DNA of 48,768 bases from an uncultured bacterium (GTDB taxonomy: Bacteria; Gemmatimonadota; Gemmatimonadetes; Palauibacterales; Palauibacteraceae), in NCBI GenBank assembly GCA_965364445.1, contig CBDTXM010000003.1:1-48768 (forward strand), given 5' to 3'. Positions 36,491 to 47,861 of this stretch are shown in pieces; positions within the stretch are counted from its first letter, which is position 1; each line of letters opens with the position of its first letter. The translations under genes were made by a program, and so were the position numbers. Under the pieces are notes generated by a model, which saw nothing but the letters and a program-made list of their open reading frames with translations, was not told the origin of the DNA and did not search any database.

Positions 36491-37213
36491 TCAGTCGATC
36501 ACGAACACGGCGTGCACCGTGACCCGGATCTCCTTCTCCCGGGACGAGGTGTCGTAGATCCCGTAGGCGGCGACGTCGGTCGAGAACGGTTCGGTGATCT
36601 GGAACACGCCGGCGCGTGCCGAGGCGATCCCCTCGATGCCCTCGCCCGTTGCCGAGGCAATCTCCTCTGCCCGCATTCGGGCGTCTTCGGTAGCTCGGGC
36701 GAGCAGGGTGCGCTTCACCTCGGCAAGCCCGGAATAGAAATACTGAAGGCGCGAATTCTGAAGCAGCAGCCCTTCCGCCAGCAGGCCGGACGGATCGAGC
36801 GCGAGCGACTCGACCACGTCCAGGTCCTCCGAGACCAGGTAGAGCGTCTGGTTCACCTGGTACTCGCGAATGCCATCCGAACCGTACATCGGGTTCGTCG
36901 TCACCGGCTGAAGGACCACCGCTTCGCGCGGTACGCCGGCTGCGACAAGCCCGGCGACGACCGACTCGACATCGCGGTTGATCCTCACGTAGCCGTCGCT
37001 GAGTTGCGACACGGGCACCGTCCGACCCACGCCCAGGCTCCACTTCACCTGGTCGGCCTCGAACGGCTGCGATGCCATTCCCACGACCTGCACCGTGGCG
37101 CGCGAGTGGCGGGCCTGGTAGAAGGAACCACCAAGGATCATCGACGACACCACTATGGCGAGGGCCAGGATCCACGTCGCCCGAGCGCCACTCCGTCCTT
37201 TCGTTTCCGTCAT
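36491..37213 (-). CDS. SIMPL (DUF541) domain protein
   Basis: N-terminal TM, VQVVGMA, ATEDARMRAEEIA, GVFQIT, KEIRVTV. Confidence 0.85.
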   Translation of the reverse strand: MTETKGRSGARATWILALAIVVSSMILGGSFYQARHSRATVQVVGMASQPFEADQVKWSLGVGRTVPVSQLSDGYVRINRDVESVVAGLVAAGVPREAVVLQPVTTNPMYGSDGIREYQVNQTLYLVSEDLDVVESLALDPSGLLAEGLLLQNSRLQYFYSGLAEVKRTLLARATEDARMRAEEIASATGEGIEGIASARAGVFQITEPFSTDVAAYGIYDTSSREKEIRVTVHAVFVID

Positions 37214-38010
37214 TCTCCCCTGCTCTTCGTGTGGATCCGGTCCGTTTCGTTTCGAATCCGATTCATCAATGAACCTGCGTACGCAATTCCGCGCGGCGTG
37301 CGCGAGCCGTGCCAGCTGAGCAATTCCCCATCCACGATCCGGAACCGTGCGCGTGCGATGCCGGTCGCCGCCGACAGCTCGTCGGCGTGCGCCTCCCGGA
37401 ACGGGAATGGCTCGGTGGAAAGAAGAACCGCATCGGGATCGGCGGCGGCCAGACCCTCGATGCCGACGGACGGGTACCGGTCGGGAAAGCCTGCCCGCCC
37501 GTCGAACGCGTTCACGCCTCCCGCCAGCCCGAGCAGATCATCGATGAACGTGTCGGTACCGGCAGCCATCACCGGGTCCCTCCAGATCAGGTACGCGTAG
37601 CGGACCGGATCGCGTCCCACCGCTTCCTCCCGGACACGTCGAGCACCGACCTCGATCTCCACCGCGATTCGCTCCGCCTCCGCTGCGGCACCGATCGCCG
37701 CCCCGATGGATCGGACCATCGTCGCGGTCTCCGCCGCAGTCTTCGGAAAGCTCACGTGGCAGCAGACGCCGCGGTCACGCAGTTCATCGGCGTCCTCGAT
37801 CCGGTTCTCTTCCTCGTTCAACAGCACGATGTCCGGCGCGAGCTCGACGATCCTGTCCACCCGTGGGTTCTTCGTACCTCCGACCTTCTCGATCGGGGCC
37901 ACGCCTTCGGCCGGATGGATGCAGAACTTCGTCACGCCGACCAGGTCGTCGCCGTGACCGAGGTCGAAAACGAGCTCGGTGAGACTGGGACAGAGGGACA
38001 CGATTCGCAC
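37210..38010 (-). CDS. BtuF-like helical-backbone (cobalamin/Fe-siderophore-binding fold) protein
   Basis: RIVSLCPSLTE, VGVTKFCIHP, GGTKNP, EEN, VDGELLSWHGSR. No signal peptide. Confidence 0.85.
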   Translation of the reverse strand: MRIVSLCPSLTELVFDLGHGDDLVGVTKFCIHPAEGVAPIEKVGGTKNPRVDRIVELAPDIVLLNEEENRIEDADELRDRGVCCHVSFPKTAAETATMVRSIGAAIGAAAEAERIAVEIEVGARRVREEAVGRDPVRYAYLIWRDPVMAAGTDTFIDDLLGLAGGVNAFDGRAGFPDRYPSVGIEGLAAADPDAVLLSTEPFPFREAHADELSAATGIARARFRIVDGELLSWHGSRTPRGIAYAGSLMNRIRNETDRIHTKSRGE

Positions 38011-38124: not shown

Positions 38125-39261
38125 TCAGTGCGGCGCAGCGGCCGTGGGAACGCTCACGTCGGGCAACGGCGTATCGGCCGTGTGAGGCGGAAGCACCGGA
38201 TAGTCCACCTGCGGCTGACGCCCGGTCAGGGTCTCGAGAAACGCCGTGATCGCCCTCACCTCATCCGGTGTCAGCACGGCTCCCAGCTGCGCCGATCCCA
38301 TGATCGACACGGCCTCTTCGAGCGACCATACCTTGCCGGAGTGAAAGTAGGGCGCGGTGATCTCGATGTTTCTCAGCGAGGGCGACTTGAAGACGTACTG
38401 GTCGGCCTCGGTGTTGGTGACGCTGAACCGGCCCAGGTCGCCCACCGGCCGAATCGCCTCGGGCGGCGCCTGGACGACACCGAACGGGAAGTATCCCTCT
38501 CCGCCGAAGTTCACGCCGGCGTGGCAGCCGGAGCAGCCCTTCGACACGAAGACCTCGAGCCCCTTCACCTGCAACTCCGTCATCGCCGCGTCATCACCGG
38601 CCAGCCAGCGGTCGAACGGGGAGCCGGGCGTTACCAGCGTGGCCTCGAACGCCTCGATCGCCCGCGCCATGTTGTCGAAGGTCACCGGCTCGCCTTCACC
38701 TGGAAACGCCTTCGCGAACAGATCTCGGTACTCGGGAATCGAGCGCAGCGTCGCGATCGCTCGATCCGGATCGCTGGCCATCTCCACGGAGGCCTGCACG
38801 GGGCCCTTGGCCTGCTCCTCCAGGTCGGCCGCACGCCCGTCCCAGAACTGGGCGAGGTTGAATACGGCGTTCAGCACCGTCGGTGCGTTTCGCGGGCCTT
38901 TCTGCCACCCGTGGCCGATCGAGGTCTCCATCAGGTCGATCCCGCCGAGCGACAGGTTGTGGCAGGTATTGCAGCTGATCAGCCAGCTGGAGGAGAGCCG
39001 GGGCTCGAAGTAGAGCATCTTGCCGAGTTCGACCTTCTCGTCCGTCAGAGGATTGTCGGCCAGCTCGGGTGCTACGGCCGGAACGACCTCGAACAATGCC
39101 GCGGCCTGTGCCCGTATCGCCGGTCCCTCGCCGGTGACGACGGTCTGAGGCGGCGCATCGGTCGCTGCAGATCCTTCGCCATCCATCGTGTCGTCGCCTG
39201 CGGAGCAGGCCGCTACTACGAATCCTACCGCCAGCCATGTCAGCAGTTGCAGGCTCTTCAT
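38125..39261 (-). CDS. ccpA: Di-heme cytochrome c peroxidase (lipoprotein)
   Basis: Lipobox VAAC, LGKMLYFEPRLS, CNTCH, PRNAPTV, QFWDGRA, CSGCH, FKSPSLRN, PYFHSG. Confidence 0.92.
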   Translation of the reverse strand: MKSLQLLTWLAVGFVVAACSAGDDTMDGEGSAATDAPPQTVVTGEGPAIRAQAAALFEVVPAVAPELADNPLTDEKVELGKMLYFEPRLSSSWLISCNTCHNLSLGGIDLMETSIGHGWQKGPRNAPTVLNAVFNLAQFWDGRAADLEEQAKGPVQASVEMASDPDRAIATLRSIPEYRDLFAKAFPGEGEPVTFDNMARAIEAFEATLVTPGSPFDRWLAGDDAAMTELQVKGLEVFVSKGCSGCHAGVNFGGEGYFPFGVVQAPPEAIRPVGDLGRFSVTNTEADQYVFKSPSLRNIEITAPYFHSGKVWSLEEAVSIMGSAQLGAVLTPDEVRAITAFLETLTGRQPQVDYPVLPPHTADTPLPDVSVPTAAAPH

Positions 39262-39574
39262 CTCTTGCCTCGTTCCGTTCGAGTGCCGCGTCCCGTTGCG
39301 CCGGATCACGGTTTCACCAATCGTGCCACGGTCCGCGGCGATCGAGGGACGTAACGAATCGGGCGGGAATCCCGAGACGGCTCGCTAACCGACTCAGGCA
39401 CAAGCGGTTTCGGACCCGCGTGCCGCCGCGGCGCGGGGCAGGGCAACTGCGTGGCGGAAAGGCTCGACGCGCGGACGGGCCAATCCGTGAAGGAACGCGC
39501 CATATCGTCCCGGCTGGAGACGACCGACGTACTCGACGGGAGCGGGACCCGGGAAAGATCGGGAGGGGATCACG

Positions 39575-40699
39575 ATGTCGGCCATGTACTCCACCTGCCT
39601 TTTCTGCAATCGGCCGCTGGGCCGGAACGAGGTGATCGAGTCCTTCCCGGTCGGACGACGGCTCGCATTCGACGAGGAGCGGGGCCGGCTCTGGGTCGTC
39701 TGCCGGAGGTGCGAGCGGTGGAACCTCTCTCCGCTCGAGGAGCGGTGGGAGGCGATCGAAGAGTGTGAGCGTCTGTTTCGTTCGACCCGGCTTCGGGTGT
39801 CCACCGACAACGTAGGTCTCGCCCGCATCGCCGACGAACTGGAACTGGTGCGGATCGGGCGACCGGTTCGGGGCGAGTTCGCGGCATGGCGGTACGGCGA
39901 CCAGTTCGGGAGACGTCGGAAGCGTGCCATCCTCTACACGACGGCCGGTGTCGGGGCACTGGGCCTGCTCGCCGCAGGCGGCGCAGCGGCGGGGATATCG
40001 CTGGGCGGCGGGTACTGGGGTTTCACGCAACTTATCCAGGGAATCAACGCCGAGAGGACCGCGGCACGTCTTCGCAACGAATCGGGCGAGCAGGTCCGGG
40101 TGCAGCTCAAGCACCTTCAGCGCTCGAGACTCGTGCCGGCGGACAATCCGGAGGGTTGGGAACTGCACGTGCGGCACACCCTTGGCTGGTCGGCGGGCAT
40201 ATCGACCGGTGACGACGAATTGATGGTCCTGTCCGGGCCCCGCGCCGTAGCCATCGCCGGGAAACTGATGGCCCGCGCCAACCGGCGTGGCGGCAAGAAG
40301 GAGACGATCTCGGAGGCGGTGCATCGGATCGAGGCCGTGGGACACCCGGAGGCGTTCCTCCTGGAGGCGACCCGTGAAGCGGACCGGCTGCGAGAGGCGA
40401 AGGCGAAGGGAAGCGAAAAGAAGCGTAACAAGACGCAGGCCGGATCGCTCGCCGGGTTGCCGGGCGAAATTCGCCTCGCCGTGGAAATGGCGACGCAGGA
40501 GGAAGCCGAGCGCCGGGCCATGGAGGGAGAACTTCAGGTTCTCGAGGAAGCGTGGCGGCAGGCCGAGGAGATCGCCGGTATTGCCGACAATCTGCTGATT
40601 CCGAAGTCCATCGAGGAATTGCTCCGAGAAGAGAAACGCCGGGCGGGACTCGACCCGGGCTCGATGCCCGAACCGGACGAGGAGGAGAGAGAATCGTGA
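39575..40699 (+). CDS. Conserved-looking hypothetical protein with N-terminal CxxC...CxxC Zn finger and Gly/Ala-rich hydrophobic segment
   Basis: GGAGG RBS, CLFC...CRRC, central hydrophobic stretch, C-terminal ERRAMEGEL...WRQAEEIAGIADNLL. Confidence 0.8.
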   Translation: MSAMYSTCLFCNRPLGRNEVIESFPVGRRLAFDEERGRLWVVCRRCERWNLSPLEERWEAIEECERLFRSTRLRVSTDNVGLARIADELELVRIGRPVRGEFAAWRYGDQFGRRRKRAILYTTAGVGALGLLAAGGAAAGISLGGGYWGFTQLIQGINAERTAARLRNESGEQVRVQLKHLQRSRLVPADNPEGWELHVRHTLGWSAGISTGDDELMVLSGPRAVAIAGKLMARANRRGGKKETISEAVHRIEAVGHPEAFLLEATREADRLREAKAKGSEKKRNKTQAGSLAGLPGEIRLAVEMATQEEAERRAMEGELQVLEEAWRQAEEIAGIADNLLIPKSIEELLREEKRRAGLDPGSMPEPDEEERES

Positions 40700-41178: not shown

Positions 41179-41240
41179 CTGGCGTGCGTCGGCCCGACCG
41201 GGCCAGTTTGCCGGACTTCGAACTCGTATCGGAGACATGC

Positions 41241-42299
41241 ATGAGCCTCGAAGGACTTCTCGCGCTCGGATTCGAGCCCGCGGGCATCGAGCCCACGGTC
41301 GTCGAGGCGGGCAGAGCGGACGGTGCATATGTCCTGGCCCTCGAACGACCCGGGATGGGCACGCGGATCGCCATCTCCCTGCGGGCCGACTCACCGGATC
41401 GCGCCGACGCAGCCGCCCGGGAGGCGTTCGCGCGACTGGACCGACTGACTGCGCTGTTGAACCGCTACGATTCGGCCTCCGCCCTCGCCACGCTCAACGA
41501 CGCAGGTTGTCTATCCGACGCTCCTGCCGCGCTCACCTCGGTCGTGGACATCGCGCTCTCCATGGGACAGGCCACCGGCGGCGCCTTCGATCCGACGGTC
41601 GCGCCGCTGGTCAACCTGTTCGGTGGTGGTGAGCCGCGCGTGCCCCCGGGAGAGCTCGCCCTCACGGGGGCTCCGGAGCGTCGTCATCGCTCGAGTCCGG
41701 CTCCCGATCCCGTGATGCTCGCGGAAGTCCGGGCCTTGATCGGATCGGAACACGTCAGGCGGCGCGGGCGAACGATCGGCTTCGAGCGCCAGGGGATGAG
41801 CCTGACACTGGACGGCGTCGCGAAGGGCTGGATCGTGGATGCCATCGCGGCCGGACTCCGCGACGCCGGGATCCACGACTTCCTGGTGGACGCCGGCGGA
41901 GACATTCGCGCGCACGGCCGACCGGAACCGGGGCGCCCCTGGACCGTGGCCATTCAGGACCCCGATCTCGGCGATAACTGGCCCGATGTCATTGCTCTGC
42001 ACGATCGGGCAGTGGCCACCTCAGGCAGTTACGAGTTCTACTTCGATCCCGGTCGTACCCGCCATCACATCGTGGCGGGACGCGAAGCGCGGTCGCCGAA
42101 CGAACTCGCAAGCGTCACGGTCAGCGCTCCGGACGCCGCCACAGCCGACGCGCTGGCCACGGCGGTATTCGTGCTCGGTCCGGATGCCGGGCCAGCATGT
42201 ATCGAACGCATGCCCGGCTGCGAGTGCCTGCTTGTGGCTCCTGACGGGGCCCGGCACGCGACTACGGGCTGGTCGGCCTTTTCCCTCCAAGGCAGGTGA
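41241..42299 (+). CDS. apbE: FAD:protein FMN transferase, no signal peptide
   Basis: MGT, GGAFDPTVAPL, LDGVAKGWIVD, DAGGD, ATSGSY, HI, ADALATA. GGAG RBS before ATG 41241; alternative start GTG 41184. Confidence 0.92.
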   Translation: MSLEGLLALGFEPAGIEPTVVEAGRADGAYVLALERPGMGTRIAISLRADSPDRADAAAREAFARLDRLTALLNRYDSASALATLNDAGCLSDAPAALTSVVDIALSMGQATGGAFDPTVAPLVNLFGGGEPRVPPGELALTGAPERRHRSSPAPDPVMLAEVRALIGSEHVRRRGRTIGFERQGMSLTLDGVAKGWIVDAIAAGLRDAGIHDFLVDAGGDIRAHGRPEPGRPWTVAIQDPDLGDNWPDVIALHDRAVATSGSYEFYFDPGRTRHHIVAGREARSPNELASVTVSAPDAATADALATAVFVLGPDAGPACIERMPGCECLLVAPDGARHATTGWSAFSLQGR

Positions 42300-42842
42300 A
42301 TGATGGCGAAGTATCCCTACGACCCGCTGTCTCACCCGTACGGCTTCTTCCAGGTCACGGCCCTCGTGGCCCTGCGATTCGCGATCGGATGGCATTTCTT
42401 CTATGAAGGACTGTCGAAGATCACCAATCCGTACTGGACTTCGGCTGGCTATCTGGATGCCTCGCAGGGCTTCGCGGCCGACTGGTTCGAATGGCTGGTG
42501 ACGGATCCCGGCCGCCTCGCGCTCGTGGACGCGCTGAACCAATGGGGTCTGCTGATTCTCGGGCTGTTGCTGATGCTCGGACTGTTTACCCGGACGGCGA
42601 CGGTGTTCGCCATCGTCCTGCTGGCCCTTTATTACGTCGCCGCGCCTCCCTGGGTCGGATTCGAGTACAGTTTCCCGCAGGAGGGAGCGTACGTGATCGT
42701 CAACAAGAACCTCGTCGAGCTCTTCGCGCTGTTCGTCACCCTGATGTTCCCCACGGGCCGCCTGATCGGACTGGACCGGCTGATTTGGTGGTCCCGCAAC
42801 ACGACCCCACCGGAACCGATTCCCGTCGGACAGCAGGCATGA
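42300..42842 (+). CDS. DoxX/DoxD (TQO small subunit-like) membrane protein
   Basis: LRFAIGWHFFYEGLSK, LGLFTR, VNKN, GLD, about 4 TM helices. Confidence 0.85.
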   Translation: MMAKYPYDPLSHPYGFFQVTALVALRFAIGWHFFYEGLSKITNPYWTSAGYLDASQGFAADWFEWLVTDPGRLALVDALNQWGLLILGLLLMLGLFTRTATVFAIVLLALYYVAAPPWVGFEYSFPQEGAYVIVNKNLVELFALFVTLMFPTGRLIGLDRLIWWSRNTTPPEPIPVGQQA

Positions 42843-42873: not shown

Positions 42874-44604
42874 ATGAGCGACGAGATCCGGAACGAAGAC
42901 GGGATGAACGAGGAACGGGAAGACAGGGAGCGAGTCGACCACGAGGAACCGCTCGACGCGGGTACTGCCGCGGAGGGTGAGGCGACTCCGGAGCCTCCTT
43001 CGCCACCCTCACCGCCGCCCCCGCCGACCGCGGCGAGCGCGGAACCCGACCACGTCGCCTCCGGAATGAACCGGCGCGATGTGGTGAAGGCCCTGGCGAC
43101 GGTTCCGTTCGTCGGCGCCCTCGGGTACGAGACGATTCGCAAGTACGGCATCGAGGACGCCCGCAGCGAAGCGATCGCCCGGGAAGTGGGCATCGAGCTC
43201 GAGTCGCCTGCATTTTCGGAAGAGGCGATCAGTCGCAGCAGCCAGACCATCCGCATCGGAATCATCGGCAACGGCGGCGAAGGAGAGTCGCTGGTCCGCA
43301 GCCTCGGGTTCGCGCACCCGGACTGGATCCAGGATCGACGGACCAGCGCCGCGGAAGACCCCAAGGACCGGCACCTGCAGGAATGGCTCGCGCAGCAGGA
43401 TCTCAACGTCCAGATCACCGCGGTGTGCGACGTGTTCGACGTGAGGGCGGAGCGCGCGATCGCCGCCTCCACCCAACCGCTCCGGCCGGGTGGCGACACG
43501 CGCACCCTGCAGCCGGCGAAACGGTATCGGCACTACGAGGATCTGCTGGCGAGCCCGGATGTGGATGCCGTGATCATCGCGACGCCCGACCACCTGCACG
43601 CCACGATCACCATCGCGGCAGCCCGCGCGGGCAAGCACGTGTACTGCGAAAAGTGCATGACACGCACCTTCGAGGAGGTGTTCCCGATGGCGGACGCGGT
43701 CCGCGAGTCCGGGATCGTCTTCCAGCTCGGGCACCAGAACCGTCAGCTCGAGAGCCACGAGAAGGCGCGCGAGGTAGTGGCGAAGGGCCTGCTCGGGCCG
43801 CTGACCCTCGTCGAGACCACCACGAACCGCAACGATCCGTGGGGCGCCTGGGTGTGGGACATCCACCCCGAGGGAAACCGGAGCACGATCGACTGGGATC
43901 TGTTTCAGATCGCGGCCGGAAGCCGGGTCCCGTTCAGCCTGGAGCGCTTCTTCCGCTGGCGCTGCTGGTACGATTACGGCACCGGCCTTTCAGGGGATCT
44001 GCTCTCGCACGAGTACGACGCCGTGAATCAGATCCTCGGGCTCGGAATCCCGGCGACCGCCACGGCATCGGGCGGGATCTACTATTTCAAGGACGGACGG
44101 GACGTGCCCGATGTCTTCCAGGCCGTGTTCGAATACCCGTACCGCGACCTGACCCTGGTCTACAGCGCGACGCTGGCGAACGGGAATTACCGGGGCCAGA
44201 AGTACATGGGCCACGATGCGACGATGGAGGTGTCCAGCGGCCTCAAGGTCACCGCCGATGGGTCGTCCACGCGGTACAAGGAGATGCTCGATGACGGCAC
44301 GGTCAGTCCGCGCCGACCGATGCTCACCTACCAGAGCGGGTACAAGGGGCTCGACGCCGTGACCACGGCGACGCAGGAGTACTTCGCCAGCCGCGGCCTG
44401 ATGTTCACCTACAAGGGGGGGCGGCGGATCAGCACCTACTACCTGCACCTCAAGGAGTGGCTGCAGGCGATCCGCGACGGAACGCCGGTGAGCTGTGACA
44501 TCGAGCAGGGTGTCGAGGAAGCCGTGACCTGTCACATGGCGACGAAGAGCTTTCTCGAGGGCCGGCGCGTGGCATGGGATCCGACGACGAGGCAGATCGT
44601 CTGA
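42874..44604 (+). CDS. Gfo/Idh/MocA oxidoreductase with twin-arginine motif
   Basis: NRRDVVK plus a hydrophobic helix, IGIIGNGG, ATPDHLH, YCEKCM, WRCWYDYGTGLSGDLLSHEYD. Confidence 0.9.
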   Translation: MSDEIRNEDGMNEEREDRERVDHEEPLDAGTAAEGEATPEPPSPPSPPPPPTAASAEPDHVASGMNRRDVVKALATVPFVGALGYETIRKYGIEDARSEAIAREVGIELESPAFSEEAISRSSQTIRIGIIGNGGEGESLVRSLGFAHPDWIQDRRTSAAEDPKDRHLQEWLAQQDLNVQITAVCDVFDVRAERAIAASTQPLRPGGDTRTLQPAKRYRHYEDLLASPDVDAVIIATPDHLHATITIAAARAGKHVYCEKCMTRTFEEVFPMADAVRESGIVFQLGHQNRQLESHEKAREVVAKGLLGPLTLVETTTNRNDPWGAWVWDIHPEGNRSTIDWDLFQIAAGSRVPFSLERFFRWRCWYDYGTGLSGDLLSHEYDAVNQILGLGIPATATASGGIYYFKDGRDVPDVFQAVFEYPYRDLTLVYSATLANGNYRGQKYMGHDATMEVSSGLKVTADGSSTRYKEMLDDGTVSPRRPMLTYQSGYKGLDAVTTATQEYFASRGLMFTYKGGRRISTYYLHLKEWLQAIRDGTPVSCDIEQGVEEAVTCHMATKSFLEGRRVAWDPTTRQIV

Positions 44605-45824
44605 TGCGTTCGGCCAGGGTCCAGCTCGGGCTGATGATGTTCCTGCAGTACGCGATCTGGGGCGCGTGGGCCCCGGTGCTGTCGTCGTACATGCTCAACG
44701 ACCTCGGGTTCAGTGGATCCGAGGTCGGCTGGATCTACGCCCTGCTTCCCCTTGCCACGATCGTCGCCCCGCTGATCGGCGGGCAGGTGGCCGACCGCTG
44801 GTTCGCCTCCGAGAAGGTGATCGCCTTCCTGCAGCTCGGCGGCGGCGTGCTGCTGCTGGTCGCAGCGAGGATCTCCGACTTCGGCACGCTCGCCGCAGTG
44901 ATGCTGATGTACTGCCTGCTGTACGCCCCGACGCTGGCACTCACCAACTCGGTGGCGATGATCAACATGGAGGACTCGGAGAAAGAGTTCGGTGCGATCC
45001 GCGTATGGGGCACCCTGGGCTGGATCGCGGCGGGATGGATGCTCACCGGCTGGCGCTGGTTCGGCGAGAGCGGGACGCTGCCGGCGATGCAGGGAGACAT
45101 GCTGTTCCTGGCGGGATTGCTGTCGCTCGTGATGGGCCTGCAGGCATTCCTGCTGCCGCATACGCCGCCGCAGAAGGAGGGCGTGAGCCCCTGGGCCTTC
45201 CTCGAGTCCTTCAAGATGTTGAAGGTGAAGGACTTCGCAGTATTCGTCGGGATCACGTTCGTGGTCGCGACCGAGCTGGAATTCTACTACATCCTCACCG
45301 CGCCCTTCCTGGAGTCGGAGGCGATCGGCGTTTCCAGCCGGAACATCCCCGCAGTGATGACGATCGCGCAGTTCGCCGAGATCTTCGTCATGGCGTTCCT
45401 TCTCTCCTGGTCGCTGAAGCGCTATGGGATGCGAAGGACGCTCGCGATCGGAGTCGTGGCCTGGCCGATCCGCTACATCATCTTCGCGATCGGAAGCCCC
45501 GCCTGGCTGGTCATCGCATCGCTGGCCCTGCACGGATTCTGCTACGTGTTCTTCTTCGTGGCCGCGTTCATTTACGTGGACAAGATCGCTCCGCCCGACA
45601 TCCGGGCCTCCGCCCAGAGCCTGATCGCGATCATCGCGCTCGGGTTCGGCCGCTTTCTGGGGAGCCTGTTCGCCGGCTGGGTGCGGGACCTGTTCACCAC
45701 CGAGGCGGGAACGAACTGGACGTACGTATTCCTCGTCCCCTGCGCGTTGACGATCTGCTGCGCCGTGGCCTTCCTGATCTTCTTCCGGGATGAATCGAAG
45801 CCGATCGCACCGGCGACAGCCTGA
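44604..45824 (+). CDS. MFS transporter, nucleoside:H+ symporter (NupG/YegT-like)
   Basis: MMFLQYAIWGAW, ADRWF, IRVWGTLGWI, LHGFCYVFFF, IRASAQ. TGATG overlap. Confidence 0.9.
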   Translation: MRSARVQLGLMMFLQYAIWGAWAPVLSSYMLNDLGFSGSEVGWIYALLPLATIVAPLIGGQVADRWFASEKVIAFLQLGGGVLLLVAARISDFGTLAAVMLMYCLLYAPTLALTNSVAMINMEDSEKEFGAIRVWGTLGWIAAGWMLTGWRWFGESGTLPAMQGDMLFLAGLLSLVMGLQAFLLPHTPPQKEGVSPWAFLESFKMLKVKDFAVFVGITFVVATELEFYYILTAPFLESEAIGVSSRNIPAVMTIAQFAEIFVMAFLLSWSLKRYGMRRTLAIGVVAWPIRYIIFAIGSPAWLVIASLALHGFCYVFFFVAAFIYVDKIAPPDIRASAQSLIAIIALGFGRFLGSLFAGWVRDLFTTEAGTNWTYVFLVPCALTICCAVAFLIFFRDESKPIAPATA

Positions 45825-45849
45825 GCTCGAGCGAGATGGGAGAGACCTG

Positions 45850-47097
45850 ATGAACGATAGACTCGGTGTAGGTTTCGTCGGCGCGGGGTTCGTCACCGGC
45901 TTCCACATTCGGAGCTGGGTAGGCGTTCGCGATGCGGACGTCCTGGGCGTCGCCAGCCGCACCCGGGCGAGCGCCGAGGGGGCGGCGAGGCTCGCCCGCT
46001 CGCTCGGCGTCGGGGATGCGAAGGCGTTCCCGAACGTCACGGAGATGGTCGCGGATCCATCGATCGACGCCATCTGGATCTGCGCGCCGAATTACGCCCG
46101 GCTCGAGGTGATGGAGGAGATCGTCCACGCCCTCGACCGGGGAGACGGGAATCTGAGAGCCGTCGCCTGTGAAAAGCCGCTGGGCCGGAACGCCGCGGAG
46201 GCGAGAAAGATGCTGCAGCTCGCCGAGCAGGCCGGACTTCTGCACGGCTACCTCGAGAATCAGCTGTTCTCGCCCGGCGTCGTCCGTGGGCGGGAGATCG
46301 TCTGGGCCCGGGGCGCCGCGCTCACCGGGCCTCCCTACCTCGCACGCGCCGCCGAGGAGCACAGCGGGCCTCACATGCCCTGGTTCTGGGAAGGCGAACT
46401 CCAGGGCGGCGGCGTGCTCAACGACATGATGTGCCACTCGGTGGAGGTCGCGCGCTTTCTTCTCACGCCGCCGGGAGCGCCCCGCGAGGTGCTCACGCCG
46501 ACGAAAGTGACCGCATACGCTTCCTGCCTGAAGTGGCAGCGACCGCAATACGCAGAACAGCTGGCGGAGATGAGCGGCGGCTCGCTGGACTACCGCAGCC
46601 GCCCCTCGGAAGACTTCGCCCGGGCGCTGGTGGAGTACCGGGACGCGGACGGTGGACGGCGGATCGTCGAGGCAACGACCTCGTGGTGCTACGTCGGTGC
46701 GGGCCTGCGGCTCACCATGGAGCTGCTCGGCCCCGAGTACTCGATGGCAGTCAACTCGCTGGACGCAGGTCCGAAGGTGTTTTTCAGCCGGGAGGTGCAG
46801 GGTGACACCGGCGAGGACCTGGTCGAAAAGCAGAACGCCGAGACAGGCGTGATGCCGATCGTGTCCGACGAAGAAGCCGAGTACGGATACATTGGTGAGA
46901 ACCGGCACATGGTTCAGGCGTTCCGCGCCGGCGAGATGCCGATGGAGACCTTCGCCGACGGCGTGGCCGTCACCGACCTCCTGATGGCTGCCTACATGAG
47001 CGCAGAGCAGGAACGTACGATCGAATTCCCGCCGGAGGGCCTTGTCGGCTTCGTTCCCGCCGTGGCTCGGGGCGAGTGGAATCCCGGGAGGGAGTGA
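45850..47097 (+). CDS. Gfo/Idh/MocA oxidoreductase (cytoplasmic)
   Basis: GVGFVGAGF, CEKPLG, GYLEN, GGGVLNDMMCH. Confidence 0.9.
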   Translation: MNDRLGVGFVGAGFVTGFHIRSWVGVRDADVLGVASRTRASAEGAARLARSLGVGDAKAFPNVTEMVADPSIDAIWICAPNYARLEVMEEIVHALDRGDGNLRAVACEKPLGRNAAEARKMLQLAEQAGLLHGYLENQLFSPGVVRGREIVWARGAALTGPPYLARAAEEHSGPHMPWFWEGELQGGGVLNDMMCHSVEVARFLLTPPGAPREVLTPTKVTAYASCLKWQRPQYAEQLAEMSGGSLDYRSRPSEDFARALVEYRDADGGRRIVEATTSWCYVGAGLRLTMELLGPEYSMAVNSLDAGPKVFFSREVQGDTGEDLVEKQNAETGVMPIVSDEEAEYGYIGENRHMVQAFRAGEMPMETFADGVAVTDLLMAAYMSAEQERTIEFPPEGLVGFVPAVARGEWNPGRE

Positions 47098-47861
47098 TGA
47101 ACTCGATCCGGACTCTGATGGCGTTGATCGGCCTGGTAGCGGCCGGGATCGGTGTGTGGTTCTTCATGACCTACGATGGCGAGACGCAAAGGGGAATCCC
47201 GGAAGCCGCCGTCGTCGCGACCGCTGAACAGGAGGCGGGGATGGGACTTACGGAGCCGCGTGACGTGGATGGCCCGCCGTTCACGGTCGAAGAGGGCTTC
47301 GTACCTCTGCTGGGACAGTGGGGCGACGGCCGATATCACAAGGGTGGGTGGAATCATTACGGACCGGGCTGGTTCACGCTCGACCACGAGACGGGAGTTC
47401 TGGCCTCGCACGGGGGCATGGGACTGATGTGGTTCGCGGCGGAGCAGTTCGGAGACTTCGTGCTGCGGCTCCAGTTTCAGACGTCCGTGCCCGAATCCAA
47501 CTCCGGCGTGTTCCTTCGCGTGCCCGAGGTGCCGGCCAGCGACGACTACATCTACCACAGCTTCGAGGTGCAGATTCACGCCACGGCGCCCGACCCGATT
47601 CACCGCACCGGGGGCGTCTACGACGCGGTCGCCCCGTCCGAGCACCGCGAACGTCCGCCCGGCGAGTGGAACGACATGGAGATCTCGTTCGTCGGTGACC
47701 GTATCACCGTAGTGCTCAACGGCGCTCAGGTCGTGGACTGGAGCGCGGAGCCAGCCGGGAAGGTGGCCGACTTCGCGCCCCGGGGCTTCATCGGGCTGCA
47801 GAACCACGACTGGGAGACCAGCGTGTGGTTCCGCAACATTCGGGTGAAGAAGCTGGACTGA
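47097..47861 (+). CDS. DUF1080 (3-keto-disaccharide hydrolase family) protein, membrane anchored
   Basis: N-terminal TM, FGDFVLRLQF, NSGVFLR, EVQI, TGGVYD, GEWN, GFIGLQNH, FRNIRVK. TGATG overlap. Confidence 0.9.
   Translation: MNSIRTLMALIGLVAAGIGVWFFMTYDGETQRGIPEAAVVATAEQEAGMGLTEPRDVDGPPFTVEEGFVPLLGQWGDGRYHKGGWNHYGPGWFTLDHETGVLASHGGMGLMWFAAEQFGDFVLRLQFQTSVPESNSGVFLRVPEVPASDDYIYHSFEVQIHATAPDPIHRTGGVYDAVAPSEHRERPPGEWNDMEISFVGDRITVVLNGAQVVDWSAEPAGKVADFAPRGFIGLQNHDWETSVWFRNIRVKKLD

What the first reader, a model, noticed from the sequence alone, without database searches (positions are those of the whole stretch)
44353..44373. Flavinylation-like motif DAVTTAT inside a Gfo/Idh/MocA enzyme
Seen: GLDAVTTATQEYF (D at residue 494) in a C-terminal insertion that the second Gfo lacks. 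Established: ApbE targets match D-x-x-[S/T]-G-A-[S/T]; this is a one-residue variant (G to T). It lies two genes from apbE and would define a new class of flavinylated protein.
Basis: partly seen in the sequence, partly recalled or inferred. Interest (0 to 1): 0.75.

Follow-up and report, generated by a model that had tools for sequence, protein, structure and literature searches.

The report
Flavin-tagged exported sugar dehydrogenase with DoxX
An exported sugar dehydrogenase in this bacterium very probably carries a covalently attached flavin, put on by the enzyme encoded two genes upstream, which would let it pass electrons through a small membrane protein into the respiratory chain; no such enzyme has been described.

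Summary
DAVTTAT (residues 494-500, nt 44353-44373) lies in a 576-aa Gfo/Idh/MocA protein in the gene order apbE-doxX-gfo.

A loose match like this arises by chance about 0.09 times per protein of this size. The case rests on these findings:
- **Conservation:** across 291 distinct orthologues from at least seven phyla, position 1 is D in 287 and the acceptor position is S/T in all 291. 203 fit Dxx[ST][SG]A[ST], a consensus validated by experiment, and three carry the canonical DAVSGAT.
- **Synteny:** apbE lies upstream in 60 of 60 Gemmatimonadota-type loci with enough flank. It was linked again in Aminicenantes, with a different ApbE lineage and gene orientation.
- **DoxX:** doxX is always adjacent, and sometimes fused to the dehydrogenase.
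- **Export:** a twin-arginine export motif is conserved.
- **Docking:** a complex prediction places exactly residues 490-503 in the conserved ApbE cleft (score 0.83; best control 0.00).

Best reading, at about 0.7: this is a Tat-exported, NAD-type glycoside dehydrogenase. FMN is attached covalently at Thr500 and relays electrons to quinone through DoxX.

Nothing here is biochemically proven, and no paper I found links ApbE to these families. This scan had already noted the same module in other genomes.

The parts
41184..42299 (+). apbE: FAD:protein FMN transferase paralogue without a signal peptide. It is the dedicated partner of the module.
   Evidence: PF02424 E 1.5e-68; NCBIfam ApbE, 115 bits, below cut-off. 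No in-frame start lies further upstream, and no hydrophobic N-terminus is present. It is one of two ApbE genes in the genome. The docking interface covers 13 of the 32 invariant columns of the ApbE alignment: T60, K214, L234, G238, G239, D240, W253, P260, A278, T279, S280, G281, Y283.
42300..42842 (+). doxX: small polytopic membrane protein, the proposed quinone-side partner. Its start codon directly follows the apbE stop.
   Evidence: PF07681 E 5.9e-9. Hydrophobic segments at residues 75-93, 95-113 and 132-150. Adjacent to the Gfo gene in 68 of 68 loci with >=700 nt upstream. Fused N-terminally to the Gfo protein in some homologues.
42874..44604 (+). gfo1: Tat-targeted Gfo/Idh/MocA dehydrogenase, 576 aa, the candidate flavinylated protein.
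   Evidence: PF01408, PF22725, PF02894. Fold matches levoglucosan, scyllo-inositol and glucuronide-3 dehydrogenases. Best NCBIfam match is the BT_2158 glycoside 3-dehydrogenase family, 107 bits against a cut-off of 750.
43072..43128 (+). Twin-arginine motif RRDVVK (residues 67-72) followed by a short hydrophobic stretch (to about residue 85): Tat signal or signal anchor.
   Evidence: RRD[VIL]LK, a Pro/Gly-containing hydrophobic region and then basic residues are conserved in nearly all orthologues (consensus). Only a 13-residue hydrophobic peak at 70-82, and none with a 19-residue window.
43258..43284 (+). Dinucleotide-binding glycine motif GIIGNGGEG (residues 129-137) of the Rossmann domain.
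   Evidence: Read from the sequence. G129, I130, G132, G134 and G137 are invariant in alignment A1. That it binds NAD(P) is an inference from the family.
43648..43653 (+). E259-K260 of the family's EKP-type catalytic motif (here EKC).
   Evidence: Y257, C258, E259 and K260 are invariant. The catalytic role of the Lys is recalled from the Gfo/Idh/MocA literature and was not tested.
44353..44373 (+). DAVTTAT, the candidate ApbE flavinylation motif. Thr500 (nt 44371-44373) is the proposed FMN acceptor.
   Evidence: Conservation in 291 orthologues. The predicted ApbE interface is residues 490 and 492-503.
44574..45824 (+). MFS transporter of the nucleoside:H+ symporter family, a frequent downstream neighbour.
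   Evidence: PF03825 E 1.1e-100. Present downstream in many, but not all, related loci.
45790..47097 (+). gfo2: second Gfo/Idh/MocA protein with no export signal and no motif, presumably cytoplasmic.
   Evidence: PF01408 E 1.9e-16. No hydrophobic segment. 26% identity to gfo1 over 133 residues.
47076..47861 (+). DUF1080 / 3-keto-disaccharide hydrolase family protein with an N-terminal hydrophobic anchor.
   Evidence: PF06439 E 3.2e-38. Hydrophobic segment at residues 7-25. BT2157, of the same family, hydrolyses 3-keto-trehalose (PMC8121099, passages read).

Best explanation
gfo1 encodes a Tat-targeted, membrane-tethered dehydrogenase of the NAD(P)-dependent Gfo/Idh/MocA type. It is probably a glycoside or sugar 3-dehydrogenase. 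Its family-specific C-terminal loop GLDAVTTAT is a substrate site for the FMN transferase ApbE encoded two genes upstream, which transfers FMN from FAD onto Thr500 as a phosphoester.

Proposed electron path: sugar, then tightly bound NAD(P)+, then covalent FMN, then quinone held by the adjacent membrane protein DoxX. That would make the trio a periplasmic sugar:quinone oxidoreductase.

The module's ApbE in Gemmatimonadota has no export signal, while the dehydrogenase has a twin-arginine motif. Flavinylation there most likely happens in the cytoplasm, before the folded holo-enzyme is exported by Tat. In Aminicenantes a lipoprotein ApbE would act after export. The downstream DUF1080 hydrolase, MFS transporter and cytoplasmic Gfo2 would process and import the oxidised product.

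Shown by computation: the motif and its conservation, the synteny, the natural fusions, the export motif, and the specific docking of the loop in the ApbE cleft.

Inferred: covalent FMN itself, bound NAD(P), the substrate, electron transfer to DoxX and quinone, and the order of flavinylation and export.
For: (1) Motif conservation. In 291 distinct orthologues pooled: position 1 is D in 287, position 4 is T/S in 288, position 5 is S 211 / T 77 / G 3, position 6 is A 246 / P 45, and position 7 is T 283 / S 8. The acceptor is S/T in 291 of 291, and 203 of 291 fit Dxx[ST][SG]A[ST].

(2) Experimental precedent for the motif variants. Published consensus D-x-x-[S/T]-G-A-[S/T]; G-to-A still gives about 50% flavinylation; D-to-A has a minor effect (PMC12052999, section 8 read). 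Kinetoplastid consensus Dxx(s/t)(s/g)AS, with DGRSSAS Ser9 proven as acceptor (bioRxiv 10.1101/2020.12.30.424822, passages). Natural FMN_bind and RnfD-like proteins have A at the Gly position: DAITAAT and DLVTAAT.

(3) Canonical DAVSGAT in divergent orthologues P0136, P0139 and L084. For these, Pfam gives a weak local FMN_bind hit at the motif (E 0.024 and 0.0028).

(4) Synteny. apbE is upstream in 60 of 60 loci with >=1900 nt of flank, and doxX in 68 of 68, although ApbE is only 38-46% identical in most of them.

(5) Second linkage. In Aminicenantes 14 of 16 loci have a divergently oriented apbE with a lipoprotein signal, from a different ApbE clade.

(6) DoxX-Gfo fusions, with DoxX at residues 14-105.

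(7) A sister family of 58 DoxX fusion proteins carries an RR motif and then a homologous site. There position 5 is S 27 / G 23 / A 4 / T 2 and position 7 is S/T in 58 of 58. It includes DAVTTAT (P0297) beside DAVTGAT. ApbE is directly adjacent in 6 of 79 of its loci.

(8) Tat motif RRD[VIL]LK is conserved.

(9) The genome has a second, membrane-anchored ApbE and other FMN clients, so the window's copy is a dedicated paralogue.

(10) Complex prediction, ApbE + FAD + Gfo residues 120-576. Median ipSAE 0.83; best of 3 controls 0.00. That mark was reached by 116 of 157 solved complexes and 2 of 215 mismatched pairs. The runs agree in at least 47% of contacts, and partner pLDDT is at least 86. The confident interface on the Gfo side is only residues 490 and 492-503. 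On the ApbE side it covers conserved motif residues. The calibration counts hold only roughly, because my own alignments and a ligand were used.

(11) Cytosolic ApbE paralogues are known: in K. pneumoniae one is needed for a soluble fumarate reductase (PMC12052999, passage).
Against: - The window's own motif has Thr at the Gly position. I found experimental precedent only for Ser and Ala, not Thr.
- 45 of 291 orthologues have Pro at the Ala position (Ala-to-Val already halves flavinylation).
- In Bacteroidota no apbE lies within 6 kb (0 of 34).
- ApbE was not found in 3 of 47 genomes that carry the module without an adjacent apbE. Each of the three does encode two FMN_bind proteins, which also need ApbE, so a gap in the assembly or the data is likely.
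- More distant relatives keep the insertion and a Ser/Thr at the last position but lose the Asp and the rest of the motif. That residue could therefore have a structural role.
- The single-chain AF2 model has pLDDT <50 over residues 475-509, and no FMN pocket is shown.
- The Gemmatimonadota ApbE lacks a signal while its presumed client is exported, so an unproven pre-export step is needed.
- ApbE is common in bacteria, so genome-level co-occurrence discriminates poorly.
- The complex score is a model's confidence, not a measurement.
Confidence: 0.7

Rival explanations
1. The DA[VI]T[ST]AT loop is only a conserved structural or substrate/cofactor-binding loop of this DoxX-coupled dehydrogenase subfamily and is not modified. 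The neighbouring ApbE serves another client, or its linkage is about co-regulation.
For: The whole segment P.FTY.PG.KG.DA.T[ST]AT..YF..RGL..TY.G is conserved, not just the seven residues. Out-group relatives keep a Ser/Thr at the last position without the Asp. T or P appears at positions where the canonical motif has G or A. Bacteroidota copies have no adjacent apbE. The pattern alone is expected 0.09 times per protein.
Against: No other protein of the conserved trio has a candidate site. DoxX has only WTSAG, with Gly at the acceptor position. The canonical DAVSGAT appears at the same site in orthologues. G, S and T interchange at the equivalent site of the sister DoxX-fusion family. Two different ApbE lineages became linked to the module. 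The docking model picks exactly this loop, with controls at 0.00.
Confidence: 0.17
2. The adjacent ApbE homologue acts mainly as a flavin-trafficking enzyme (FAD pyrophosphatase or FMN supplier, as described for T. pallidum Ftp). It provides non-covalent FMN or FAD to the dehydrogenase or to DoxX, and no phosphoester bond forms.
For: T. pallidum Ftp has FAD pyrophosphatase activity in addition to transferase activity (PMC4436053, abstract and passages). In Aminicenantes a Tat-signal NusG_II gene lies beside the lipoprotein ApbE, hinting at a flavin-handling set.
Against: A signal-less ApbE in the cytoplasm, where FMN is already available, has no obvious trafficking role. An invariant acceptor Ser/Thr within a transferase-type motif is unexplained by this reading. 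Conserved transferase motif residues line the predicted interface with the loop.
Confidence: 0.07
3. The ApbE client in the module is DoxX, or the dehydrogenase domain sits in the cytoplasm in Gemmatimonadota and is flavinylated there as an ordinary cytoplasmic client.
For: The Gemmatimonadota module ApbE has no export signal: 0 of 37 have a hydrophobic N-terminus. DoxX has a conserved loop NPYWTSAG.
Against: The DoxX loop ends in Gly, not Ser/Thr. The RR motif and short hydrophobic region of the dehydrogenase are conserved across phyla, including those whose module ApbE is a lipoprotein. In the fusions, four DoxX helices followed by the RR segment place the Gfo domain outside; this is an inference and the positive-inside rule.
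Confidence: 0.05

Closest known systems
Established ApbE clients: FMN_bind domains of NqrC/RnfG, NqrB/RnfD, NosR, PceC, and DUF2271, DUF3570, FMN_red and Flavodoxin_4 (Méheust 2021, PMC8238504; Huang 2024 preprint 10.1101/2024.03.13.584918; passages read)
   Same: A short D-x-x-[S/T]-x-A-[S/T] loop with an invariant acceptor Ser/Thr. A gene neighbourhood with apbE. An extracytosolic redox role with a membrane partner.
   Different: The host fold is the C-terminal domain of a Gfo/Idh/MocA NAD-type dehydrogenase, not an FMN_bind or flavodoxin-like fold. Position 5 is mostly S or T rather than G. The membrane partner is DoxX. The Gemmatimonadota ApbE lacks a signal peptide, and the 2021 survey removed such genes. 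Neither paper's main text mentions Gfo, MocA or DoxX.
Kinetoplastid fumarate reductase N-terminal flavinylation motif DGRSSAS (bioRxiv 10.1101/2020.12.30.424822)
   Same: Ser replaces Gly in the motif, and flavinylation is experimentally proven. 203 of 291 orthologues here fit that same relaxed consensus.
   Different: A eukaryotic protein with its own fused ApbE domain. The motif is at the extreme N-terminus. The window's copy has Thr, not Ser, at that position.
Glycoside 3-dehydrogenases BT2158 / AL3 (Liu 2021, PMC8121099; Nasseri preprint 10.1101/2024.03.25.586180) and Zymomonas glucose-fructose oxidoreductase
   Same: Tat-exported Gfo/Idh/MocA enzymes with tightly bound NAD(P), clustered with a DUF1080 3-keto-disaccharide hydrolase and a second Gfo. 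Best NCBIfam and PDB sequence matches.
   Different: Only 107 bits against the family cut-off of 750, so this is not a member. Those enzymes are described as recycling NAD with a second sugar. The passages I read mention no DoxX, ApbE or flavin. Whether they have the insertion was not tested; the PDB profile alignment stops at residue 365.
Klebsiella pneumoniae cytoplasmic ApbE paralogue with soluble fumarate reductase (as summarised in PMC12052999)
   Same: One genome holds a secreted ApbE plus a signal-less ApbE dedicated to a particular client.
   Different: The client there stays in the cytoplasm. Here it carries a twin-arginine export motif.
DoxD/DoxA thiosulfate:quinone oxidoreductase and the DoxX family (PF07681)
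   Same: A small polytopic membrane protein associated with quinone-linked redox reactions. Weak DoxD hits.
   Different: No DoxA partner. Here it is paired or fused with an exported protein bearing a flavinylation motif. Quinone binding by this DoxX is inferred, not shown.
Periplasmic 3-ketoglycoside dehydrogenases LacABC / ThuAB (named in PMC8121099)
   Same: A possible functional analogue: periplasmic sugar oxidation feeding the respiratory chain, followed by a 3-keto-glycoside hydrolase.
   Different: According to PMC8121099 these are cytochrome c-dependent dehydrogenases of other protein families. No sequence relation was tested here.

Membership tests
ApbE flavinylation substrate | Sequence motif D-x-x-[S/T]-G-A-[S/T] (strict published consensus) | tested here: not met
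   The window has DAVTTAT, with T in place of G. Only 3 of 291 orthologues have G.
ApbE flavinylation substrate | Relaxed, experimentally validated consensus Dxx(s/t)(s/g)A(S/T) | tested here: inconclusive
   Met by 203 of 291 orthologues (consensus). The window's own copy has T at position 5, which is untested experimentally. The identical DAVTTAT occurs beside DAVTGAT at the equivalent site of the sister DoxX-fusion family.
ApbE flavinylation substrate | Conserved acceptor Ser/Thr at motif position 7 | tested here: met
   T 283 and S 8 of 291.
ApbE flavinylation substrate | A cognate ApbE encoded nearby or elsewhere in the genome | tested here: met
   Adjacent in the window. 60 of 60 related loci. 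44 of 47 genomes whose module has no adjacent apbE.
ApbE flavinylation substrate | Enzyme and client meet in the same compartment | tested here: inconclusive
   The window's ApbE has no signal, while the client has a Tat motif. This is compatible only if modification precedes export. In Aminicenantes both are extracytoplasmic.
ApbE flavinylation substrate | Recognition of the motif by ApbE's active site | tested here: met
   Prediction only. ipSAE 0.83 against a best control of 0.00; interface residues 490 and 492-503 against conserved ApbE residues.
ApbE flavinylation substrate | Covalent FMN phosphoester shown by fluorescence or mass spectrometry, lost in the Thr-to-Ala mutant | not testable with these tools
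   Needs an experiment.
FMN_bind domain (PF04205) | Match to the domain profile above the gathering score | tested here: not met
   No hit for the window's protein or its 65-aa segment. Only sub-threshold local motif hits in the canonical-motif orthologues (15.7 and 18.7 bits; cut-off 22).
Gfo/Idh/MocA oxidoreductase | Rossmann N-domain and alpha/beta C-domain profiles; glycine motif; EK(P) Lys | tested here: met
   PF01408 at 64.3 bits (cut-off 24), PF22725, PF02894. Invariant G129/G132/G134/G137 and E259-K260. Foldseek top hits are all family members.
BT_2158 glycoside 3-dehydrogenase family (NF058561) | Score above the equivalog cut-off of 750 bits | tested here: not met
   107 bits. A distant relative only.
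Tat substrate | Twin-arginine motif (S/T-R-R-x-F-L-K-like) followed by a moderately hydrophobic region | tested here: met
   RRDVVK plus a 13-residue hydrophobic peak. No dedicated predictor was run, and export was not shown.
ApbE (PF02424) for the neighbour gene | Profile match and conserved motif residues | tested here: met
   231.6 bits. DGxAKG, GGD, ATSG and HHI residues are invariant or nearly so. Their catalytic roles are recalled from the literature.

The most novel reading that the evidence does not exclude
A widespread, unrecognised class of respiratory enzymes may exist across Gemmatimonadota, Aminicenantes, Bacteroidota, Marinimicrobia, KSB1 and others. Each is a Tat-exported NAD-type sugar dehydrogenase carrying a covalently attached FMN that re-oxidises the trapped NAD(P)H and hands electrons to quinone through DoxX. 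This would answer how periplasmic Gfo/Idh/MocA enzymes can carry out net oxidation. In Gemmatimonadota a dedicated cytoplasmic ApbE would flavinylate the enzyme before Tat export, which would be the first case of ApbE modification preceding export. Together with the DoxX-fusion sister family, 'DoxX plus a flavinylated exported domain' would be a general electron-transfer architecture.
Probability: 0.5. Interest if true: 0.85.

Novelty: new variant of a known kind. Interest (0 to 1): 0.72.

Why it matters
Tat-exported Gfo/Idh/MocA dehydrogenases are common in polysaccharide-degrading bacteria and carry a trapped NAD(P). How they get rid of electrons in the periplasm is an open point. Liu et al. 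proposed 'another as yet unidentified sugar' as acceptor. Nasseri et al. proposed recycling by 3-ketoglucose.

A covalent FMN wired to DoxX would give these enzymes a direct route into the quinone pool. It would add a new protein fold to the list of ApbE clients, and it would assign a concrete role to the poorly understood DoxX family. It would also show that surveys restricted to signal-peptide-bearing ApbE miss whole systems.

The hypothesis is directly testable, because cultured carriers exist: Roseimarinus sediminis DSM 28824 and several Carboxylicivirga strains.

Tried and rejected
- **Single-chain AlphaFold2 model (48-row alignment).** Mean pLDDT is 65.7, and the motif loop 475-509 is below 50, so it says nothing about an FMN pocket. 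Coordinates are not returned, so the distance from Thr500 to the NAD site could not be measured.
- **PDB sequence search with the C-terminal 197 residues.** No relative was found; the only hit had E 0.99. The inserted segment therefore has no solved homologue by sequence.
- **Pfam scan of the window's own 65-residue motif segment at E <= 10.** No hit.
- **Test of whether motif-less relatives also lack apbE and doxX.** The out-group query P0147 returned only 2 loci. One of them (L162, Planctomycetaceae) has no doxX but does have a 578-aa ApbE-domain gene 1.7 kb downstream on the other strand. The test is therefore uninformative.
- **Genome-level presence of ApbE.** 44 of 47. This is a necessary condition but a weak discriminator, because ApbE is common.
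- **DoxX loop NPYWTSAG as an alternative target.** Rejected because the acceptor position is Gly.
- **Literature look-up of PDB codes 8TDF, 8TDH and 8TDI.** One unrelated paper. That 8tdf and 8tdh are AL3/BT3 is my guess from the neighbouring entry 8tdi.
- **Not read.** Supplementary file 1 of Méheust 2021, which lists gene clusters, could hold such loci.
Full report
**The observation**

The ORF at 42874-44604 (+) encodes 576 residues. GLDAVTTATQEYF is present, with D494 at nt 44353 and T500 ending at nt 44373. Pfam gives these assignments for the neighbourhood:
- ApbE, 41184-42299
- DoxX, 42300-42842; its start codon directly follows the apbE stop
- Gfo/Idh/MocA, 42874-44604
- a nucleoside:H+ symporter-family MFS transporter, 44574-45824
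- a second Gfo/Idh/MocA, 45790-47097
- a DUF1080 / 3-keto-disaccharide hydrolase, 47076-47861

The second Gfo shares only 26% identity over 133 residues and has no counterpart of the segment.

The loose pattern D..[ST].A[ST] occurs 10 times in 63,732 residues of open frames in the window, about 0.09 per protein of this size. The occurrence alone is therefore not significant.

**Conservation of the motif**

- *Closest homologues.* The 120 nearest homologues (59-91% identity, mostly Gemmatimonadota) all keep the site. 102 of 121 sequences, including the window's, match D..[ST].A[ST]. Of the other 19, 18 have DAVTTPT and 1 has NAVTTAT.
- *Distant representatives.* A search of 50%-identity cluster representatives shows the motif kept down to about 41% identity. 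P0136 and P0139 carry the fully canonical DAVSGAT. Still more distant relatives keep the inserted segment but lose the motif, and the rest of the superfamily lacks the segment.
- *Wider taxa.* Loci retrieved with P0136 come from Bacteroidota, Aminicenantes, Marinimicrobia, KSB1, Ignavibacteriota, Zhuqueibacterota and Gemmatimonadota. The Bacteroidota include cultured Carboxylicivirga species and Roseimarinus sediminis DSM 28824. All 77 with the region intact have D at position 1 and S/T at position 7.
- *Pooled counts.* Of 297 sequences, 5 are fragments without the region and 291 are distinct:

| Motif position | Residues (of 291) |
|---|---|
| 1 | D 287 |
| 4 | T/S 288 |
| 5 | S 211, T 77, G 3 |
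| 6 | A 246, P 45 |
| 7 | T 283, S 8 |

203 of 291 fit Dxx[ST][SG]A[ST].

**What is known about the motif**

- The 2025 review gives D-x-x-[S/T]-G-A-[S/T]. The last residue is essential, D-to-A has minor effects, and G-to-A and A-to-V each give about 50% flavinylation (PMC12052999, section 8 read in full).
- The kinetoplastid fumarate reductase motif is Dxx(s/t)(s/g)AS. In T. brucei, Ser9 of DGRSSAS is the proven acceptor (bioRxiv 10.1101/2020.12.30.424822, passages). Ser at the Gly position is therefore validated.
- Bona fide FMN_bind and RnfD-like proteins in this genome and others show Ala there: DLVTAAT and DAITAAT.
- Thr at that position, as in the window, has no precedent that I found.

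**Gene context**

- *Gemmatimonadota-type loci (80).* apbE lies upstream in 60 of 60 with at least 1900 nt of flank, and doxX in 68 of 68 with at least 700 nt. In most of these loci ApbE is only 38-46% identical. The downstream genes are often, but not always, present.
- *Aminicenantes.* 14 of 16 loci with flank have an apbE about 1-2 kb upstream on the opposite strand, with a Tat-signal NusG_II-domain gene between.
- *ApbE types.* The Aminicenantes ApbEs have lipoprotein-type signals: 14 of 14 have a hydrophobic N-terminus. Of the Gemmatimonadota-type ApbEs, 0 of 37 do. The two groups fall in separate clades of an ApbE tree (25 of the Gemmatimonadota sequences were sampled at random for the tree). 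The link to ApbE therefore exists in two different forms.
- *Bacteroidota.* No apbE lies within 6 kb (0 of 34).
- *ApbE elsewhere in the genome.* 44 of 47 genomes with a non-adjacent module encode ApbE elsewhere. The three without a hit each encode two FMN_bind proteins that also need ApbE.
- *The window's genome.* It has a second, membrane-anchored ApbE on another contig, plus RnfG/RnfD-like clients.

**DoxX**

Several homologues are natural DoxX-Gfo fusions, with DoxX at residues 14-105.

A search for longer relatives of the window's DoxX found 65 proteins. Of these, 58 (>=480 aa) form a fusion family: DoxX, then an RR motif, then a short site, then an exported domain that has no Pfam match.
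- At that site position 5 is S 27, G 23, A 4 and T 2, and position 7 is S/T in 58 of 58.
- P0297 has DAVTTAT where orthologues have DAVTGAT.
- In 79 loci of this family, ApbE is directly adjacent in 6: L184, L187, L215, L218, L233 and L244.

G, S and T therefore interchange at an equivalent site of a related DoxX-linked family in which the canonical form is common.

**Localisation**

The dehydrogenase carries RRDVVK followed by a 13-residue hydrophobic peak. The pattern RRD[VIL]LK, a Pro/Gly-containing hydrophobic region and then basic residues recurs in nearly all orthologues. This is a twin-arginine signal or signal anchor.

With four DoxX helices before it in the fusions, the dehydrogenase domain should lie outside the cytoplasm. 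That is an inference.

The signal-less ApbE of Gemmatimonadota would then have to act before export. Cytosolic ApbE paralogues are known in K. pneumoniae (PMC12052999). Tat export of cofactor-loaded Gfo is known for Zymomonas (cited in PMC8121099).

**Structure and docking**

The fold is a standard Gfo/Idh/MocA fold. In the AlphaFold2 model the motif loop has low confidence.

A complex prediction used the ApbE alignment, FAD and Gfo residues 120-576.
- *Score.* The three runs gave 0.83, 0.85 and 0.81 (median 0.83), against a best control of 0.00. That mark was reached by 116 of 157 solved complexes and 2 of 215 mismatched pairs. The runs agree in at least 47% of contacts, and partner pLDDT is at least 86.
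- *Caveat on the counts.* They hold only roughly here, because my own alignments and a ligand were used.
- *Gfo side.* The confident interface consists only of residues 490 and 492-503.
- *ApbE side.* It includes T60, K214, L234, G238-D240, W253, P260, A278-G281 and Y283, which are 13 of the 32 invariant columns of the ApbE alignment.
- *Limits.* This supports recognition of the loop by the ApbE cleft but does not show it. I know of no solved ApbE-client complex (recalled, not checked).

**Function**

The best NCBIfam match is the BT_2158 glycoside 3-dehydrogenase family, far below its cut-off (107 bits against 750). The neighbours mirror the 3-keto-glycoside clusters: a DUF1080 hydrolase with an anchor, a transporter and a cytoplasmic second Gfo.

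In those clusters the fate of the electrons on the trapped NAD is an acknowledged gap. A covalent FMN passing electrons to DoxX and quinone would fill it. That chain of steps is inferred.

**Novelty**

- No paper in the library holds 'Gfo Idh MocA' with ApbE, DoxX with Gfo, or ApbE with DoxX.
- DoxX with flavinylation gave two papers, and the one listed is unrelated.
- None of the 10 papers listed by a five-term search held ApbE.
- Méheust 2021 and Huang 2024 do not mention Gfo, MocA or DoxX in their main texts. The 2021 survey discarded genes without a signal peptide or lipidation site. Its supplementary tables were not read.
- This scan's earlier notes describe the same module in at least six other genomes, and the DoxX-fusion family in three. 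They are unverified AI notes. I re-derived the points I use.

**Verdict**

It is a new variant of ApbE-dependent extracytosolic electron transfer. Confidence is about 0.7 and interest 0.72.

Noticed in passing
P0272-P0330; loci L178-L256: A separate, widespread family of about 510-550-aa proteins: a DoxX domain 43-57% identical to the window's, then an RR motif, then a flavinylation-type site (DAVTGAT, DAVTSAT, DAVTTAT and similar), then an exported domain with no Pfam match. ApbE is directly adjacent in 6 of 79 loci. The cultured Mariniphaga sediminis SY21 carries one (L243).
   Followed up: partly
L093:4137-5117(-), L108:4175-5056(-) and other Aminicenantes loci: A gene with a Tat-type N-terminus and a NusG_II domain (PF07009, E about 1e-14) sits between the lipoprotein apbE and doxX, co-oriented with apbE. 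It may be a flavin-handling accessory. Its function was not examined.
   Followed up: no
G020 (genome of L116, a single 2.9-Mb record), G035, G046: No ApbE was found by family or protein search, although each genome encodes two FMN_bind (RnfG/NqrC-like) proteins and the DoxX-Gfo module. Either a gap or masked stretch hides the gene, or an unrecognised transferase is present.
   Followed up: partly
L162:979-2403(+) and L162:4071-5807(-): A Planctomycetaceae out-group Gfo keeps the insertion with ...RSTPT... instead of the motif and has no doxX. A 578-aa protein with a C-terminal ApbE domain and an unassigned 280-residue N-terminal part lies 1.7 kb downstream on the other strand.
   Followed up: partly
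L081 (own genome, contig C5): 2-1333(+) and 1339-2568(+): The genome's other ApbE has an N-terminal membrane anchor. It directly follows a 443-aa protein with several CxxCH haem-binding motifs and an N-terminal hydrophobic helix.
   Followed up: no
window 42874-43065 (Gfo1 residues 1-64): An acidic, proline-rich N-terminal extension precedes the twin-arginine motif. It is present only in the closest clade; homologues below about 67% identity start near residue 55-65.
   Followed up: no
window 37383 (-), inside the Peripla_BP_2 gene 37210-38010: DELSAAT also fits the loose pattern. It is one of 10 such matches in the window and was taken as chance.
   Followed up: no
window 38125-39309 (-) and 39575-40699 (+): A di-haem cytochrome c peroxidase (PF03150) lies upstream of the cluster. 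Next to it is a 374-aa protein with CxxC pairs and no Pfam match.
   Followed up: no
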